A stretch of 64,000 nt of DNA. Origin: Octopus vulgaris. Its lineage: Eukaryota. Below the pieces are notes generated by a model. It searched no databases, was not told where the DNA came from, and saw only the letters and a list, made by a program, of their open reading frames with translations. Positions 3,585 to 48,758 of this stretch are shown here, piece after piece. Each line of letters starts with the position of its first letter. Positions within the stretch are counted from its first letter, which is position 1. Made by a program: the position numbers and the translations under genes. Location: assembly GCA_951406725.2 (NCBI GenBank), contig OX597818.1, positions 6,076,001 to 6,140,000 of the forward strand, written 5' to 3'.

Positions 3585-4412
3585 GACTTTTGCTTTATAT
3601 TTGTACGAGTTGGCTCCAAGTTTCACCCAGAGACCACAAGAGACAACAGGTTGGAATTTCATGTTGTTATGCCTAGCGTGCCATATATTTGCTTTTTTTT
3701 CTAGTGCTGTATTAGTGAATGTCTAAAAAAAATCGAAAATTATGTTTGTTTTAAAACTTGAGATTACATAGAAAGTATTTTGCGTAGGATACGAGCAGTT
3801 CCCATGAGCACTATCTTTTGAATTTCTGCCATTTTGGGGTTTCCTGGTATCTGAGTTAGGTAGCTATCAGCCCCTTTTGCTATCATTCCCAGGGCACCTC
3901 TGACTACAGGTATTGTTTTAGTCTTCAGGTTCTATATTTTATTGATTTCTATTTCAAGATCTTTATATTTGCTCAGTTTTTGGTAGGTCTTGACAGATAC
4001 GTTTATATCGATTGGGACAGTCATATCAATAAGGAGGCATGTTCTTTGTATGAAGTCTTTCAATATGATGTCTGGCCTATTTGCATCTATCTTTCTGTCA
4101 GTTTGGATGGTGAAGTTTCAGAGGAGTGAGATGTGGTCATTTTCAAGCACTGGAGGTGGTTTGTGTTCCCACCAGTTTTTTTCATGGGGCAAAATCCAGG
4201 TTTTTGCAAATTACCCAGTGAATATATTGTGCAGCTCTGTCATGCCTGTTGAGATACTCTGTAGGCGCTAGAAGACTGCACTTGGAGACAATGTGATCAA
4301 TGGTTTCATTTTGTTGTTGACATACACGACATGTTGGGCTACTACCGTTCTTTAATATGTTGGCCTGGTTGTTCCTTGTTGGTAGGCATTGATCTTGAGC
4401 TGCTATGATAAA
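3585..4412 (-). mobile_element. 3' fragment of R4/Dong-like RLE non-LTR retrotransposon
   Basis: Minus strand reads ...LLWNFTIQTDRKIDANRPDIILKD...LLIDMTVP...KYKDLEIEI...IPVVRGALG...IQKIVLMGTARILRKILSM (RPD..D restriction-like endonuclease); flanked by ATT repeats. Confidence 0.85.
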
Positions 4413-4577
4413 CCCTTATTATTATTATTATTATTATTATTATTGTTGTTGTTGTTGTTGTTATTATCATTATCATTGACATTATTATTATTATTATTAT
4501 TTTTGTTGTTGTTGTTGTTATTATTATCATTATCATTAACATTATTATTATTGTTATTTTTATTTTATTATTATTGT

Positions 4578-7050
4578 CTTTGCACAGCTTCTAATGCTGG
4601 AGATGCACTACGCTGTCAGCTATTTACTACCAGTGAACTAAGGTAACATCCCTTATTTTCGAGCGCCAACCAGAGTATTTGAGCGGCTCCAAGCAGCGCT
4701 GTTATGTGCCAGTGTCACATGCTTATTTTAGCCGCTATTTGTTCTCAAGAATTTTACACACTATTCTCACGGCTCCGACAATTATTGGTACTACTACCAC
4801 CTTTTTTCAGCGACCACAACTGCATAACCTCCCAAGCAAACCTGTCATATCTATCTACTTTTCTTTCTTCCTCATCGCATAACTTGTTGTCAGTTGGCCA
4901 TACACTATACCTATGATACAGCATCGTTTGATTTTTTTCCCGATTAACACTATATATGATTTCTCGGTTTTTGTGTCATGGTCCCACTGAATCATAAAAT
5001 CCCATAGGAACTTTGTATTATCATTTTCGATGACGCCATCTTCTTTCTATGTCTGTCTTATCTTCAATATTCCTATGAAATTATTCATGCACTCTTTTAT
5101 TTATCCACCTATTTTCAGTTTCATTCCTTCTCAGTGCTTTATCTTTGCAATCTTCCATCCTACACAAGCTTGACCTTCATACTTACAATAATAGCGTTTC
5201 TGTGACATTTATTACATACTATGTTATGTTGTTTTCTTCTGCTCTAATGATGTGTTCGCATCAAATCAGTCCTCTCTCCTTCTTTTTCTTGGTACATACA
5301 GTCTGTCAGGGTCACTTTTTGGGTGGAGTTTCCCATATCTAGTCAGCAACTTGTTTGTATTTCTGTCTAAGCTGTTTAGTTAGTCTACTGTCTATGGTAT
5401 TACCTCTGCTCCATATCTAAGGTGTGAATCCGCCCAGGTATTGATAGCTTTAATCGGATTCCGTCCGTTTAATTTCGATTCCCGTATCAATCTCAGTCTG
5501 CGCAAGTAGTCCACCTTAGATGTTTCTGCCATTTCTTTCTCTATCAATATATCCATTTTCAATATCCCCAAGTAATTATAGCATGTCTGTTCTATTTGCT
5601 TCATGACATCCCCCGATATTATCGTTAGCCCGTCCATGTATTTCATTTTGCCTCTCTTCAAGAATAACAAGTCACACTATTTCACTCCGATCACCTTTCT
5701 GGAAGTATACACCGTATCAACGAGGGAAGGGATTGGGATTCATCTTTACCATAATGTTTGAGGCCCTCCATGAATAACAAGTGGTTGACATTTTGGTGAC
5801 GGCTCATGAATACTTACCCAACCTCAGAATCGGTGTTAGTGGCATCATGCACAGTACGAGATCAGTGAGTGCCTCTCCTGATTTCTATTGTTCTTAAACT
5901 TCTTCCGTATGCTGTCAGATCCCTCCTCCACTTCGCCATAAGTTTTCCAAGAAATCGCTCAACATTCGATGCAACACCAAATAGGTTCATACATTCCATA
6001 ATACAAGAATTTGTGATTATATCGTATGCATTACGATAATCGAACCCCCTCTTGCAGTATCTAAATACAACTTTATCTACCAGCAGTTTATTTTTGGTAC
6101 CTCTGCACTTACGCTTGCACCCCTTCTGCTTATGTGGCATAACTTCATTTTTTCCAGATGTCCGTACATTGACACTGATTATTCCAGTCAATAATTTCCA
6201 CATAAAAGGCAAGTATTTCCTTTTTCGATGTTTTTCAAGCACAGCACCATCCTACTCTTGTCAACAACTCGGGTGTTACTTGGTTGGCATTGAACGAGGT
6301 GTTGAGTTGTGCAGTTATTCGTTTCTGACATTCACCAAATCTTTTGATCTTGTCCCGGGACCTTCCAGTTACCCATTTTTTTAATGATTTTCCTCACGTC
6401 CCTAACTGAAATTACTAATTCTGCCTGTTTTGTTTCGGTTCTTGCAACCATTCAGAATTCTTTTGTGTTCCTTGTCTTTGCCCCAGATGTCGTTCCAAAA
6501 CCTTTGACTTTCAATATTATCTGGTATCTACTTTTCATCTGTACACTCCATTTATTTCTTTGTAGAATATTTTCTGATCTACTCCGATCTACTGCTGGTA
6601 TTCCTTCATTGTTTGGTCGTTTCTTACCATTTTTGCTTTCTCTGCAACGAGGCATTATTTCAGTCCTTCCGTCACAACTTTCAGTCTCTTTCTTTCTGTA
6701 ACATATTTCGGCTTTAGCGCGCTGTAATTTTGTTCACTTTTAGCCTCCTCCTCTTTTCGGTCTAACGCAGAAATGTCCTTCGAGAGCATGTCTAACCCCG
6801 TCTCTATTCTTCTTCTCCTCCATGGAACTTTTCTTTTGTCACTCCCATTTTATTGCTTTTTTCTTGACACCAACACCCACATCTGCTATAAGAATACGTG
6901 CTGCCTTGATCAAATTATTTGTTCCTGTGATGTTTTTGTTCTGATGTATTTCAGAATTTCATTCACTTTTTTTTTGTTTCTTGGTTCAATTTCCAGAGAC
7001 TAACCTTTTAAAGTTTACAAATAAAGTCGCTATCGTTCTCTTGTAGCCTA
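4578..7050 (-). mobile_element. Decayed R4/Dong-like RLE LINE (RT plus RLE end)
   Basis: Fragments LPFMWKLLTGII, QKGCKRKCRGTK, DYRNAYD, IRRG, YNYLG, SKLNGRNPIKAINTWA, LWSLKKVVVVPIIVGA; many stops and frameshifts; 3' end abuts ATT/GTT tract at 4416-4575. Confidence 0.85.
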
Positions 7051-7079: not shown

Positions 7080-7222
7080 TTTATTGCCTTCTTCCAGTTC
7101 GTTTATATGTCTTTCATAGACATATGGCTGCATACTTTGATGAATAAAACTATTCCTTGTATTTATAAAACATTAGCAAACTTTTTTTCTTTTCTACAAA
7201 TATCATACTTGAAGACCTAATA
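7080..7222 (+). mobile_element. Right-end remnant of mariner element
   Basis: gcatactttgatgaataaa...attagcaaactttt...tcatacttgaagacctaata matches right end of the mariner at 38281-38372. Confidence 0.75.
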
Positions 7223-7244
7223 GAAATATTAAAATTACTAAGTC

Positions 7245-7743
7245 TCGAAGGTTATAATGGATACAGATCGTGTATCAATAGCTATCTTGATGGCGGTGGC
7301 CTCATGGAGCTGACCAGCGGCAGCGATTATTCTTATATCTATAAGAATGCCATATTAATATGGCGATAACAATTAATTTCCAGTAAACGCTGCCGTAATC
7401 TCTTTTATAGAGACTTAGGAATTTTAATATTTCTATTATTGAAAACAAGTGGATGTATTCCACTGAAACTAGGTAAATAGAAACCTTCGAACAGAGACGT
7501 CAGTGGCGACACCTGGGGGTCTGACTGCGCTACATTGACAAGGGGCAATACCCCGAAACGCGTCTGTAGCTGTCGGACTGGCAGTGTGAAGCGGCTGACC
7601 TCCCTTGTTCGAAGGTTATAATTGATACAGATCGTGTATCAATAGCTATCTTGATGGCGGTGGCCTCATGGAGCTGACCAGCGGCAGCGATTATTCTTAT
7701 ATCTATAAGTATGCCATATTAATATGGCGATAACAATTAATTT
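7245..7743 (+). mobile_element. Partial tandem Penelope pLTR / retrozyme-like unit, 364 bp period
   Basis: 135 bp direct repeats 7245-7379 and 7609-7743 (2 mismatches) bracketing a hammerhead motif; ends in (TA)n. Confidence 0.7.
7529..7570 (+). ncRNA. Minimal type I hammerhead ribozyme, U3-A8 core variant
   Basis: GCTACA-TTGACAA-GGGG CAATA CCCC-GAA-ACGCGT-C-TGTAGC: 6 bp stem I, 4 bp stem II, palindromic stem III, GUC cleavage triplet. Confidence 0.8.
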
Positions 7744-7749
7744 ACATAT

Positions 7750-7795
<46 letters not shown>

Positions 7796-9506: not shown

Positions 9507-9877
9507 TTTTTTTTTCTTCTTTCAAATTTTCTTCCATTTCTTGCCGAGTGTCTTCCCGACTCCTAGGGCAAAGAAACTCATAGTGTATATTGGTAGGCCA
9601 TTAAACCAAACTCAGTAGTTCGTTAATTTTTTTTTTTTTTTTTTTAAGTTAAATTAAAATACATGAGCAGCAACAGTTCTCACATCGACAATGCTCTTCT
9701 CAATACGTGTGATGTACCAGTTAAGACAATCTTTTGCACTTCTTGCAGGGATGGTAAGCCAGGGATCATTCTCATATAATTTTCGGTTCCCTTCTTGATC
9801 ATTCCTAGTGCTCCTACGATCACTGGTATTGTAACCGCCTTGAGATGCCACATTTTCTCAATTTCAATGAGTAGGTC

Positions 9878-42779: not shown

Positions 42780-45700
42780 AAAATGTCCAGAACCTGGAGG
42801 AGCATGGAATTGGCGTTGTTCCCGAGAGCCTGGAAATAATCCGAACAACATAATTACAGCTGCGCTGAAGAGCAGTGCATACACAAGGACGTTAGCACAG
42901 ATAGAGAGAAAGAAGCAGGTGTTTATACGCTTCTATGCACTCATAAGATCCCACATCGGCACGCTTGATGCCATCTTTGACAACGAACAAAGTAAAGATG
43001 GCAAGGATGGAGGCACGGGTGCTAATGAAAGATGTCACCCCACTTGGCAGACACGCAGGACAACAAAGAAGATTCAAGTGAGAAACCTGCCCGGGAAGTA
43101 AACCCAAGTGCAAGTGTCCCTACCAGCACCAAAAACCAAAACCATGAAGATGAAAGAGCCAAAAAAGAAGTAAAAGGAAGAAAACTAAAAGAAAAACAAA
43201 AGATGAAACAGCCAAGGATTGAAGCAAACCTGACTATCCATATACCAAAAAGGATAGAAAGAGACTGCGCACACGAATGTGTAAATTCTACCTGATAGGT
43301 GTCTGCTGGCATGGAGAGGAAAATGCAGGCTGCAGTTTTGCACACCAAAGACCCTGCCACATAAACATGAAACAGGGCAGAAACCAACTACCAAAAGGAA
43401 AAGGAATGGACCATGCACCACCTGCCCCAAAACGGAGGTACGCAGATGTAGTGCGTGCTACAAACCACCAACATATTATTGAAAGGGCAACTGCTGAACA
43501 AGAATATTTTTTGTGCATGGCACAAAAGATTGTATAACAGCTAACCTGGCTCCATCAAACTCAAACTCGCAGATGGGACAATCCACAATACACAAGACCG
43601 CCACAGTAAATAGACCCAAGGTGAACACCACCGGCAACAACACACACATCACCTCGATGCTCCTACTGAACATCAGAGGACTGCTAACACTCAGTAACAA
43701 GACAAAAATCCCGTTCTTGAGAGACCTTGTTGCATGCAGTCAAGCCTTATACATAGCACTTACGGAAACACACATGAAACCAGACATAGTAGATGCGGAA
43801 ATACACATACCACAGAATGTTGTACTACGGACCGACAGAAAAGAAAGGAGTCATGGAGGAGTTGCTATGTACATCCGCGAGGTCCTCACACCCCAGGTCC
43901 TTTTGTCATACTCAAATTCCGTGTGTGACACACTAATTGTACATAAAAGGCAACTTGGTGTAGTTGTGTGTGCTACATATCGCCCTCCAGATGCCCCAAG
44001 CCATGTAGGCAAGTTTGAAGAGTGCCTTATAAAAAGAGAAGACGTTCTAGTCACATTAGAACAACACATAAGTGTACTTCTTATGGGAGTCTTCAATCTG
44101 CCCAATGTCAGATGGCCCGAGGGCCTTTCTCTCCCAGGAATGACACGATGCGAACAAGGACAGGCGAGGTCCCTCCTGAACCTCATCAACATTCTGTACA
44201 TGGAGCAAATAATACTCCAGCCAACAATGGCAGGTAACATAATGGATCTCTGCTTCACAAATAATATGGACCTCATCCATAATGTGAAAGTGACACCGAC
44301 ACTGCTCTCGGATCACAACATGGTAGAGCTGACCATGTACGGGCCAAAAGAAAATCATGGACATGCAGTCTACAAGAAACTCTCAGAATCTTTCCAGCTT
44401 GAACTTCCATAAGGCAAACTGGAAACAAATTGAAAAAGAGATCCTCAAACAAAACTGGCCTGAATGTCTCTCCTCGCCAGACATCGACATGAAACTTCAA
44501 CAATTCATGTCTGTAATGCAAGCTATATGCTACAAATGTGTCCTAGAGAGAAAGGCCACTGTATACAAGAACAAAATCCCCAGAGAGAGGAGAATTCTAA
44601 TGAGACGGCGTACAAATGTTTCAAATCGACTAAACAAACAAATTGAAAGCAGTGAAAAGTCCCGCCTGAAAATAAAACTGTTGGAAATTGAAAAGTGTCT
44701 GCAACTCTCCCATGAAAAAGAAAGAGCAGACAAAGAAGCCAGGGCTATAGACAACATAAAATCTAACCCCAGAGCTTTCTACATGTATGCCAAAGAAACA
44801 GCTACGGTGCACTGTAGGATAGGGCCACTCATTGAAAAGGATGGCACACTCACAGCAAATCCAATGAGGATAAGTGAAATACTAAATGAGCAATCCAAGA
44901 GTATTTTCACTCCACCCCTAGGGCATTTTCAAGTCAGCAATCCAACTGACCTCTTTATCACTGCAGATATAAAATCAGAGGCAACGATGATTGAATACAT
45001 CAATATAAAGGAAGACGATGTAATAAAGGCTATAGATGAAATGAAAACAAACTCATCTACTGGCCACGATGGATTCCCAGCAATCCTTCTGAAAGTATGT
45101 AAGAGAGTCCTAGCAAGACCACTGCAGTTCCTCTTTCAGAGCTTCCTTGCAACTGGCAAAATTCCAAGAAAATTGAAGGAAGGTAAAATATGCCCTATTC
45201 ATAAAAGAGGTAACAGAGCGGAGGCCAAGAACTACAGACCTATCTCTCTGACCTCACACATCAGCAAGGTCATGGAACGAATAGTCAGAAGGAAACTAAT
45301 CACCTTCCTTGAAGAAAATGATTTGCTGCCTGACACCGAACATGGTTTCCGACCAGGAAGTAGCTGCCTAACACAGCTCCTATAACACTATGACTGGGTG
45401 CTGAAACCACTGCTCAACCACTCAAATGTCGAAGTCATATATCTCGACTTTGCAAAGGCCTTTGATAAAGTCGATCATGGAATGATATGTCACAAACTGC
45501 GTGATCTTGGCATAGTTGGAAAATTGGGAGAATGGCTTCATGACTTTCTGAAGGATAGAAGCCAGGTGGTAGTAGCCAATGGGGCCACTTCCATTAACAC
45601 GCAAATAGTGAGCGGTGTTCCACAAGGCACTGTTTTGGGACCACTACTGTTCATAATGGCCCTCTCAGACATGCCCTCAGCCACGCAGAGAGCCACGATC

Positions 45701-47415
45701 ACAAGTTATGCAGATGATACAAAAGTTTCACAGGCAATACAGAATCCTGAAGACACTATGCACCTGCAATGTGAGCTGGACAAAATATACAAGTGGGCTG
45801 GAAAGGATAGCATGCAGTTCAATGCTGAAAAGTTTCAAGCTTTATGCTATCAGCATGCAAAACTAAATGCAATACCCAATAAATGCACTGGACCTGGAGG
45901 GATTGCAATCCCAGAGGCACAATCAGTGCGAGACCTGGGTATTTACATGAGTGATGATGCAACCTTTTATGTGCATGTTACTAAATTGGCAATGAAATGT
46001 AGGCGGCTGGCTGGCTGGATTCTAAGAACCTTTAGAAAAAGAGACCAGGAAACCATGATGGTTTTCTGGAGGACACTTGTCCTAAGCCACTTTGACTATT
46101 GCTTTCAGCTATAGTCACCATCCAGTGTCAAGTTAATCACAGAACTTGAGGCGATCCAACGGAACGAGAGGACCGATCAGGTAAAGGACCTGGGTATCTT
46201 GGTGGATTCCTCCTTTTCGCCTTCGGCCCAGTGCGTCCATGCTGCCAACAAAGCACGCGGAATTCTGTTCTTGATTCGACGGTCATTCGGAATGCTCACA
46301 GCAGTCATATTCCTACCACTCTATGTCACGCTGGTGAGACCTATATTGGAGTATGGGATTCAAGCCTCTTCTCCTTATCTCCTCAAAGACATACAGCATC
46401 TCAAAAGAGTCCAGAAGCTGGCTACCCGCATGGTTGATGGTCTCAAAAATTTGTCCTACGAAGAAAGGCTGAGGACGTTCGACCTTTATTCTCTTGAAAA
46501 ACGCCGCCGCCGTGGTGATCTGATTCTCGCCCACAACATTATAAGCGGAAAGTGTAACCTCTCGAAAGAGCTGTTCTTCACTCCTGCTCCAGAGCGTCGG
46601 CTGCGGGGTCATTCCGAAAAGCTCTACCTGCGACGATTTCATCTCAATCGAAGGAGAGGAGCTTTCTCCGTCCGGGTTGCGGATCCGTGGAACAAGCTGC
46701 CAGACGAGATGGTGAAGATGCCGACGACCGCTTTGTTCAAACTCTTTACATGAACTCTTTACATGAACTCTTTACATGAACTCTTTACATGAACACCACC
46801 CTGTACTTAACTCCATGTCCCCCTACATGGCCTTGCTATTTGCTTTTGAGCCAAATTAACTAACTAACTAACTAACTACACGAAGATGATAGCCTCTGTG
46901 CAGCATATAAGCTACCGGGAAAGACTCAAGAGATTAAGGCTCTATTCCTTAGAGCGTATGCGAGAAAGATATGCCATAATATACATCTGGAAGATCCTAG
47001 AAGGACTTGTCCCAAACTTTGGCATCGAGAGTTACACAAATGCTAGAACTGGGCGGCACTGCATAGTGCCAAGAACTCCAAATTTGCCATCAAGATGTAG
47101 GACAAGATATTGTGATGGCCTGGACTTCAGAAGTCCACAGCTCTTCAATATCCTCCCGAAGAACCTGAGAGACCTGCATGGGGTGGATGCAAATGTCTTT
47201 AAAATAAAACTGGATCTCTTCCTGTCAGGTGTCCCAGATGAACCAACTTCACGGCAGGAGGTGCAGATGAGGGCAGCTGCATCGAACTCTCTCATGCACC
47301 AAATGGCAATTGCTAAAAAGCATTCGTGAAGTAAAATCATGTAGCAGCACCAAATGGTGGTGCCCCAGCATGGCCACAGCTCGTGAGCTGAAACTAGATA
47401 AAATAAAATAAAAAT
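42780..47415 (+). mobile_element. Near full-length, disabled CR1-group LINE (ORF1 remnant plus APE-RT ORF2)
   Basis: ORF1 Cys/His motif CKFYLIGVCWHG...CSFAH; APE motifs LNIRGL, TETH, GGVAMY, YRPP, GVFN (GDFN mutated), SDH; RT motifs NYRPISLTS, HGFRPG, YLDFAKAFDKV, GVPQGTVLGP, YADD; frameshift near 44360-44410, stops at 45383 and 46112; (TAAAA)n tail. Confidence 0.95.
46166..46876 (+). mobile_element. Nested 5'-truncated CR1-group LINE of a different family
   Basis: Open frame KDLGILVDSSFSPS...LYVTLVRPILEY...SLEKRRRRGDLI...FSVRVADPWNKLP; (TAAC)n tail; removing it restores host frame ELEAIQRN-YTKMIAS. Confidence 0.92.
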
Positions 47416-47969: not shown

Positions 47970-48342
47970 TATATTTATATATATAAAATTGTTAATGATC
48001 GGTAAATTAGCCCTAATTAGAAAGAAAATTTCATTAATGCATAGTGAACATTTTCTATCTATATAATTATACGCAGGTACTGATATTAGTATCTTCCATT
48101 GTAAATTATTACTTTTTTTTTTTATCCTTAAGTTCCCATATATATGTACTTAACCCAGTAGAATTACTCCTATTTCTATTTTTAAAAGTATATCTGTGAT
48201 AGTTAAGTCTTTGTTTCAAATTATTCTTCGTAGTCCCGATATAGACTTTCCTGTCGTATTGTGTTCTTACTATACATTGATATACTACTTCCTTCCTAAT
48301 GCAGTCATTATTAAATACACAATTTCTTCTTTTTAAGTTGCT
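47970..48342 (-). mobile_element. Penelope-like GIY-YIG endonuclease fragment
   Basis: [16 protein letters not shown]...KVYIGTTKNNLKQRLNYH...STGLSTYIWELKD, then WKILISVPAYNYIDRKCSLCINE. Confidence 0.88.
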
Positions 48343-48343
48343 G

Positions 48344-48399
<56 letters not shown>

Positions 48400-48408
48400 A
48401 CGGAGATG

Positions 48409-48442
<34 letters not shown>

Positions 48443-48484
48443 GGAGATGTACTTGCATATATATATATATTACGAAGATGTACA

Positions 48485-48758
48485 ATTACAGCGTGGAAGG
48501 TGTTTACATGCCATTTAAGAAACACACAAAATCCGTTAGATGCACTTGAAGATTTAAATTTCATTTCTCAAAATACTTTCGTCGCTTTGAGACAATGACA
48601 TGTTCACTGACTAAATGCAGCACGGAATTTTGTCAGGGAAGAGGTCGTGGTCTCAAAGCGTCGAACGTATTTTGACAAATTAAATTTAAATGTTGAAGTT
48701 AATCTAGTGGTTTTTGTGTGCTTCTTAAATGGCTTCCAAACACCTTCAACGCTGCAAT
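48485..48758. repeat. Diverged palindromic element, same family as 56907-57489
   Basis: cagcgtggaaggtgttt...ccatttaagaaacacacaaaa mirrored by ...cttaaatggcttccaaacaccttcaacgctg. Confidence 0.85.

What the first reader, a model, noticed from the sequence alone, without database searches (positions are those of the whole stretch)
7219..7743. Retrozyme-like 364 bp structured unit around a U3-A8 hammerhead
Seen: 135 bp direct repeats 364 bp apart with only 2 mismatches; a clean hammerhead between them, enclosed by a 12 bp stem (aaccttcgaaca 7482-7493 / tgttcgaaggtt 7606-7617); a 28 bp inverted copy of internal sequence at the 5' junction (7219-7246 vs 7410-7437); no ORF. Established: non-LTR retrozymes are non-coding units of a few hundred nt with a type I hammerhead that yield circular RNAs, and Penelope insertions show partial-tandem and 5'-inverted ends. 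Inference: a 1.4-mer insertion copied from a circular or multimeric RNA by a Penelope RT.
Basis: partly seen in the sequence, partly recalled or inferred. Interest (0 to 1): 0.75.

Follow-up and report, generated by a model that had tools for sequence, protein, structure and literature searches.

The report
Hammerhead retrozyme with Penelope insertion ends
This is one of hundreds of scattered copies of a 364-letter non-coding repeat that carries a predicted self-cutting RNA, and the fixed, paired ends of its copies suggest that a Penelope-type jumping gene pastes it in from both strands of a DNA cut; whether its RNA forms a circle is untested.

Summary
The 364-bp unit is a dispersed, protein-less family: 507 exact matches to a degenerate hammerhead-core pattern, with subfamilies about 75-99% alike, all about 360-364 bp. 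The hammerhead (7529-7570) shows compensatory stem I changes and keeps a palindromic helix III, so it is a predicted dimer-type ribozyme. U3-A8 is already known from Penelope-like elements (PLEs). Of 137 non-redundant loci, 76 are head-to-head two-arm insertions; 63 of the 65 with both ends typed pair one short end (unit ~133) with one long end (~193). Target duplications are 12-14 bp where visible, and most copies sit in (TA)n. This is the PLE tail/inversion footprint, also seen in two intact Neptune-type PLEs of this genome, neither of which shares DNA homology with the unit. No coding parent was found. Circularity is unproven: copies within an insertion share haplotypes (41 of 42 loci), but five private variants are shared by only some copies, which points to multi-unit templates. 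Verdict: a new member of the metazoan non-LTR retrozymes, with genomic evidence for PLE mobilisation. The scan has noted this kind many times before, including in this genome.

The parts
7218..7246 (-). Inverted arm (unit 192 to 164), whose outer end is the family's fixed long end
   Evidence: 29 bp, 1 mismatch; long ends at unit 183-200 across the family
7245..7743 (+). Direct arm, 1.37 units (unit 363 round to 133), whose outer end is the fixed short end
7247..7610 (+). One 364-bp repeat unit (numbering used in this report)
7245..7246 (.). 2-nt overlap shared by both arms at the inversion centre; the direct arm stops at the base of the long stem, a family truncation hotspot
   Evidence: 17 of 130 arms end at unit 356-5, 5.0 expected
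7245..7379 (+). First direct repeat (pLTR-like, ends at the short-end site)
7609..7743 (+). Second direct repeat, ends at the short-end site
7380..7439 (+). 60-nt tail between the two inferred reverse-transcription start sites
   Evidence: analogy to PMC11167929
7529..7570 (+). Type I hammerhead, U3-A8 core, palindromic helix III, predicted cut after 7564
7482..7617 (+). Long stem (rod) closed by the 12-bp helix and carrying the hammerhead
7430..7483 (+). Hammerhead look-alike with a conserved hairpin (7448-7464) just 3' of the long end; not supported as a ribozyme
7744..7795 (.). (TA)n-rich target flank; no target duplication visible at this copy

Best explanation
This is one copy of a dispersed, protein-less 364-bp repeat family with a conserved type I hammerhead fold, likely copied into new sites by a Penelope-like (probably Neptune-type) reverse transcriptase-endonuclease borrowed in trans. 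Inferred cycle: a copy longer than one unit is transcribed. Two hammerheads pair through the palindromic helix III and would cut after GUC (predicted). Monomers are probably closed to circles in some rounds, while other insertions come from uncut multi-unit transcripts. The enzyme would nick both strands of an AT-rich target about 12-14 bp apart. Each 3' end would prime reverse transcription at one of two fixed internal sites 60 nt apart (unit ~133 and ~193). Both cDNAs run upstream, often stop at the base of the long stem, and are joined head to head. Shown: family, fold covariation, fixed paired ends, target duplications. Inferred: enzyme, priming order, cleavage, circle. Odds: PLE-mobilised retrozyme about 0.9; circle as a recurring intermediate about 0.6 of that.
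For: Copies: 213 exact 34-nt cores; 507 matches to a degenerate core, reversed control 0; period 360-364 in all subfamilies. Ends: 76 of 137 loci are two-armed; 63 long+short, 2 short+short, 0 long+long, 11 with an atypical end (63 of 65, p 6e-17). Of 47 single arms, 24 are long and 22 short. Targets: 54 of 76 two-arm loci have a microsatellite flank; 11 of the other 22 show a 12-14-bp duplication. Two intact RT+GIY-YIG elements (775 and 781 aa) show the same layout: tails about 40-46 and about 36 nt, (TA)n targets, one end of each type in 3 of 3 and 2 of 2 two-arm copies seen. The 781-aa family also has a U3-A8 hammerhead. In vitro, a PLE cuts and extends both strands and starts at two internal sites that define the tail (PMC11167929, parts 1-2). 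Hammerhead: 22 double-changed cells vs 5.7 shuffled, 0 of 500 shuffles; helix III stays palindromic in three forms. Template longer than one unit: 79 of 171 arms exceed 364 nt. Haplotypes agree within a locus in 41 of 42, 14 of 15 and 14 of 15 loci.
Against: No helper is identified: neither Neptune-type family has significant DNA similarity to the unit, and their tails are shorter than 60 nt. Private variants are shared more across arms (9 in 13,878 site pairs) than along an arm (1 in 8,839; p 0.05-0.10). Five are shared by only some copies of a locus (L024, L025, L030, L149, L155), which a single monomer circle does not give. 5' ends are not enriched at the predicted cut (1 of 130 vs 1.8 expected; a weak test, because loci were chosen for holding the core). 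Hammerhead cleavage was not needed for PLE insertion in vitro (PMC11167929). Eight of nine Xenopus retrozymes did not cleave in vitro (bioRxiv 10.64898/2026.07.22.740005). Seven non-microsatellite two-arm loci and this copy show no duplication. Covariation counts are not corrected for relatedness.
Confidence: 0.58

Rival explanations
1. Same PLE-driven, two-site insertion, but the template is always a linear read-through transcript of tandem arrays. No circle is formed, and the hammerhead only trims transcripts or acts as a protein-binding fold.
For: Partly shared private variants in 5 loci; 133 of 171 arms run through the cut site, 20 of them twice; one arm mixes two haplotypes (L014); cleavage was dispensable for PLE insertion in vitro (PMC11167929).
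Against: Linear copying can only shorten arrays, yet the lineage kept more-than-unit copies across subfamilies 75-99% alike (inference). Haplotype markers are uniform within 41 of 42 loci. L142 and L113 share rare variants across all passes. Related retrozymes do form circles (PMC7229834).
Confidence: 0.3
2. The unit is the pLTR of a low-copy coding Penelope-like element, and the copies are its truncated ends.
For: It has a pLTR-like make-up (hammerhead, tail, two ends). Only 137 loci were examined, against 2140 search candidates. Retrozymes derive from pLTRs in Xenopus (bioRxiv 10.64898/2026.07.22.740005).
Against: Arms longer than one unit continue into the unit again, up to 1292 nt. The 5' flanks of 47 single-arm copies share no common upstream sequence at the junction. 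The PLE ORF beside L017 is split by the unit, so the unit is nested. No homology to GIY-YIG or RT loci.
Confidence: 0.06
3. The inversions arise by self-priming on an antisense template, as hypothesised for bdelloid Penelope elements, rather than by priming from both target nicks.
For: PMC3846280 (passages) proposes this. A few junctions are symmetric at palindromes (L132, L137).
Against: The inner ends of the two arms differ in most of the 46 young two-arm loci. The outer ends pair long with short, and either arm can be the longer one.
Confidence: 0.04
4. A DNA-level repeat (MITE, Helitron or satellite) that folds by chance.
For: Inverted ends and tandem units occur.
Against: Variable 5' truncation, unequal ends, and RNA-type covariation with G-U pairs in both halves of the unit.
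Confidence: 0.02

Closest known systems
Metazoan non-LTR retrozymes (Cervera and de la Pena 2020, PMC7229834, parts 2-4 of 6 read, supplement unreadable; Li, Clavereau and Pollet, bioRxiv 10.64898/2026.07.22.740005, parts 1-3 of 5 read)
   Same: Non-coding tandem units of a few hundred bp (mussel 350-390, axolotl 330/350), type I hammerhead with a short palindromic helix III, GC below 50%, stable fold, long target duplications, PLEs in the same genome.
   Different: U3-A8 core. Mostly dispersed 1-2.5-mers arranged as two head-to-head arms with fixed ends, which the parts read do not describe for retrozymes. RNA expression and circularity not shown here.
EN+ Penelope-like element insertions (Craig 2021, PMC8557442, passages; Arkhipova 2013, PMC3846280, passages; Frangieh 2024, PMC11167929, parts 1-2 of 4)
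   Same: Partial tandems, an inverted 5'-truncated copy, a tail at one end only, (TA)n bias, two internal start sites, target duplications of about 10 bp.
   Different: No ORF. The tail is 60 nt rather than 30-40 nt. Target duplications are 12-14 bp.
U3-A8 hammerheads of Schistosoma Cercyon PLEs (Cervera and de la Pena 2014, PMC4209133, parts 1-2 of 4)
   Same: Same core covariation; predicted dimer mode.
   Different: Here the helix sizes are canonical (stem I 6 bp, extended; stem II 4 bp) and the motif sits in a non-autonomous unit.

Membership tests
Metazoan non-LTR retrozyme | Short non-coding unit (about 150-450 bp) in tandem or partial tandem | tested here: met
   364 bp; longest ATG frame 21 aa; 79 of 171 arms exceed one unit
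Metazoan non-LTR retrozyme | Type I hammerhead in each unit | tested here: met
   Rfam models do not detect it
Metazoan non-LTR retrozyme | Multi-copy, no true LTR pair, target duplications longer than 4 bp | tested here: met
   PBS and PPT were not searched
Metazoan non-LTR retrozyme | Stable self-paired monomer fold | tested here: met
   z -7.4 (the minus strand also scores -8.3, so stability alone gives no strand); covariation in both halves
Metazoan non-LTR retrozyme | Self-cleavage | not testable with these tools
   needs in vitro transcription
Metazoan non-LTR retrozyme | Expressed as monomeric circular RNA | not testable with these tools
   only assembled contigs of runs with unrecorded library type were on hand
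EN+ Penelope-like element (autonomous) | RT plus GIY-YIG ORF | tested here: not met
EN+ Penelope-like element (insertion footprint) | Partial tandem, inverted 5'-truncated copy, tail at one end | tested here: met
   63 of 65 typed two-arm loci
EN+ Penelope-like element (insertion footprint) | Sequence shared with the pLTR of a resident PLE | tested here: inconclusive
   none with the two intact families or the remnants sampled; both searches scored only 150 of 10,810 and 150 of 6,136 candidates
Plant LTR retrozyme | Type III hammerhead in LTRs, 4-bp target duplication | tested here: not met
   type I fold; duplications 12-14 bp

The most novel reading that the evidence does not exclude
A minimal RNA replicon that has lost all sequence likeness to its helper and is recognised by a Neptune-type Penelope dimer through its fold alone. 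The two subunits prime from opposite target nicks at two fixed sites on one 364-nt RNA circle. That would make it the smallest natural substrate for working out how Penelope enzymes build tandem and inverted insertions, and the first genomic link from retrozyme circles to integration.
Probability: 0.3. Interest if true: 0.7.

Novelty: new member of a known kind. Interest (0 to 1): 0.42.

Why it matters
The retrozyme papers read here propose PLEs as the mobilising enzyme from co-occurrence and pLTR similarity; the parts read give no insertion-level evidence. This family gives it: fixed paired ends, 12-14-bp duplications and (TA)n targets, next to two intact candidate helpers. It makes the open questions testable with a 364-nt RNA: which enzyme, circle or multimer, and whether the ribozyme is needed. 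The class, the U3-A8 core and the PLE footprint are each already known, and the scan has recorded this kind repeatedly, which limits surprise.

Tried and rejected
Second hammerhead at 7430-7483: found by my descriptor and first taken as real. Rejected as a ribozyme: no double-sided change in 16 pairs, GAAA reads GAAT in the 7 oldest of 28 rows, the 3' strand of stem I has indels, and it needs bulges next to the core.

PLE ORF beside L017/L018 as parent: rejected; the unit splits an old broken element. L070 has a broken RT piece abutting the 5' end, a single case.

17-nt match of unit 5-21 to a Neptune RT motif, and a 42-nt AT-rich match to the 775-aa element's 3' region (antisense, E 9): treated as chance.

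5' ends at predicted cut sites: 4 of 130 and 1 of 130, not significant.

RNA editing fixed in copies: A>G is 2 of 12 shared private variants, no enrichment.

Expression: no RNA holder listed. Contigs from five guessed-RNA runs cover parts of the unit but cannot show ends, strand or circles; not used as evidence.

Rfam: nothing relevant. One recalled Pfam accession was not in the library.

Paper searches found nothing describing this family or this footprint in retrozymes: retrozyme+hammerhead+Penelope, octopus+retrozyme (52), cephalopod+hammerhead ribozyme (53), Penelope+non-autonomous+pLTR+target site duplication+inverted (69), retrozyme+Neptune (77). The supplement of PMC7229834 could not be read, the preprint's supplements were not seen, and either may list such a family.

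Rows dropped: 13 of 150 loci as duplicates; 14 complex loci from the arm statistics; arms under 84% identity or with atypical ends; L001-L030 from the truncation test, because they were selected for a full-length match.

Full report
Observation. All described features are present. The direct repeats 7245-7379 and 7609-7743 differ at 2 sites; the 12-bp stem is exact; the inverted piece is 29 bp with 1 mismatch. The hammerhead is type I with a U3-A8 core and a GUC site at 7562-7564. Rfam misses it. The longest ATG frame round the unit is 21 aa. The circular fold has z -7.4 against 100 shuffles; the minus strand scores similarly.

Family. The window lies in a 2.8-Gb genome. Earlier scan notes call it octopus-like; I did not test that. 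The unit gave 2140 candidates, of which 40 were scored, with full-length matches at 97-100% identity in nearly all. An exact 34-nt core occurs 213 times, a variant core 134 times and a degenerate core 507 times; reversed controls gave 0. Subfamilies at about 75-80%, 84-90% and 95-99% identity keep a 360-364 period. Contigs of runs labelled as three other organisms also carry it.

Ribozyme. In 28 natural rows the hammerhead and its rod show 22 double-changed cells against 5.7 in shuffles (0 of 500); pairs with a double change are 5 against 3.2 (50 of 500). These controls ignore relatedness. Stem I has two compensated pairs. Between subfamilies the core changes only at position 7, and helix III reads ACGCGT, ACATGT or ACTAGT, palindromic in each form. 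By PMC4209133 (parts 1-2 read), such hammerheads work as dimers, and U3-A8 was already reported in Schistosoma PLEs. The other half of the unit also covaries (27 vs 12.5 cells). A second hammerhead-like motif at 7430-7483 failed the same test. Its hairpin is conserved and lies just 3' of the long end, so it may be a binding site for the enzyme (inference).

Insertion anatomy. I mapped 150 loci and dropped 13 duplicates. Of 137, 76 have two arms joined head to head, 47 have one arm and 14 are complex. Outer ends fall at unit ~131-133 or ~190-193. Two-arm loci: 63 long+short, 2 short+short, 0 long+long, 11 atypical. Of these 76, 54 have a microsatellite flank; 11 of the other 22 show a 12-14-bp duplication, 4 lie in (ATT)n and 7 show none. 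In 130 arms not selected for length, 17 stop at unit 356-5, the base of the rod (5.0 expected, p 1e-5); the predicted cut sites are not enriched. The window copy is typical: a 29-bp long-end arm, a 499-bp short-end arm that stops at the rod base, a 2-nt overlap at the centre and a (TA)n flank, with no visible duplication. Its three internal mismatches each depart from the family majority in one copy only, so they probably arose after insertion.

Link to Penelope-like elements. PMC8557442 and PMC3846280 (passages read) describe partial tandems, an inverted 5' copy and a 30-40-bp tail at one end. PMC11167929 (parts 1-2) shows a PLE protein cutting and extending both strands and starting at two internal RNA sites that define the tail, without needing hammerhead cleavage. 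This genome holds two intact RT+GIY-YIG families of 775 and 781 aa, 47% identical. I call them Neptune-type from the cysteine linker motif (per PMC8557442; no tree was built). Both end in two positions, sit in (TA)n and carry hammerheads; the 781-aa family has a U3-A8 core with an ACATGT helix III, as in the mid-aged subfamily of the unit. Neither has significant DNA similarity to the unit, so the helper is unnamed. No sampled copy continues into a shared coding upstream region.

Circle or multimer. Of 171 arms, 79 exceed one unit and 9 exceed two; the longest is 1292 nt. Three haplotype markers agree within a locus in 41 of 42, 14 of 15 and 14 of 15 loci, against about 0.52 by chance for the two markers. 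So each insertion comes from one haplotype, and repeated copying of a monomer probably happens somewhere in the lineage. Twelve private variants are shared within 11 of 66 young loci, against about 0.2 expected by coincidence, so both arms share a template. But in five simple loci only some copies carry the variant, and sharing along one arm is rarer than across arms (1 in 8,839 vs 9 in 13,878; p 0.05-0.10). That fits templates with distinct units, or gene conversion between arms, better than one monomer circle. A>G is not enriched among shared variants (2 of 12). RNA data could not decide the point.

Comparison and verdict. It works like a PLE insertion without an ORF and meets every testable feature of metazoan non-LTR retrozymes (PMC7229834, parts 2-4; bioRxiv 10.64898/2026.07.22.740005, parts 1-3); cleavage and circular RNA remain untested. 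The parts read propose PLE mobilisation but do not report this insertion footprint for retrozymes, and eight searches found no description of the family; unread supplements may bear on this. The scan's index lists 386 findings with these words, including look-alikes in this genome; they are unchecked notes, not support. New member of a known kind; interest 0.42.

Noticed in passing
L061-L066 (e.g. L063:1637-5906): Very young Neptune-type PLE: 4270-bp unit, overlapping 454-aa and 775-aa frames, copies 99-100% identical. Its hammerhead has a C4 core variant (CCGAAGA) and a palindromic helix III.
   Followed up: partly
L217-L228 (e.g. L223:2206-4548): Second intact Neptune-type PLE (479-aa and 781-aa frames) with a U3-A8 hammerhead, a tail of about 36 nt and internal tandem repeats in its 3' region. 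Best candidate helper, not shown.
   Followed up: partly
window 7289-7291, 7480-7483, 7516 (markers across young copies): The marker at unit 234-237 occurs with both haplotypes of the two flanking markers, which are tightly linked to each other. This suggests template switching, double crossover or recurrent change.
   Followed up: no
L007, L143, L161, L138: Inversion centres join unit 236 to unit ~360-1 through the 12-bp inverted repeat, so the stem acts as junction microhomology.
   Followed up: partly
L017/L018: A unit nested in an old broken Neptune-type element, present twice 4480 bp apart (local duplication).
   Followed up: yes
L023:2231-3017: A 787-bp GC-rich tandem-repeat element, starting with (CAT)n, inserted into an array of the unit.
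   Followed up: no
window 48112-48567 (-): Fragment that looks like a GIY-YIG endonuclease of a PLE, possibly Naiad-type (label recalled; no Pfam hit).
   Followed up: no
window 4180-6250 (-), 9680-9870 (-), 43498-47326 (+): Broken non-LTR retrotransposon pieces (RT, and an endonuclease-RT element); family names not tested.
   Followed up: no
L020:1-1194 (-): A 398-aa open frame resembling a PLE reverse transcriptase of another clade (Naiad-like by recalled motifs), beside a unit copy.
   Followed up: no
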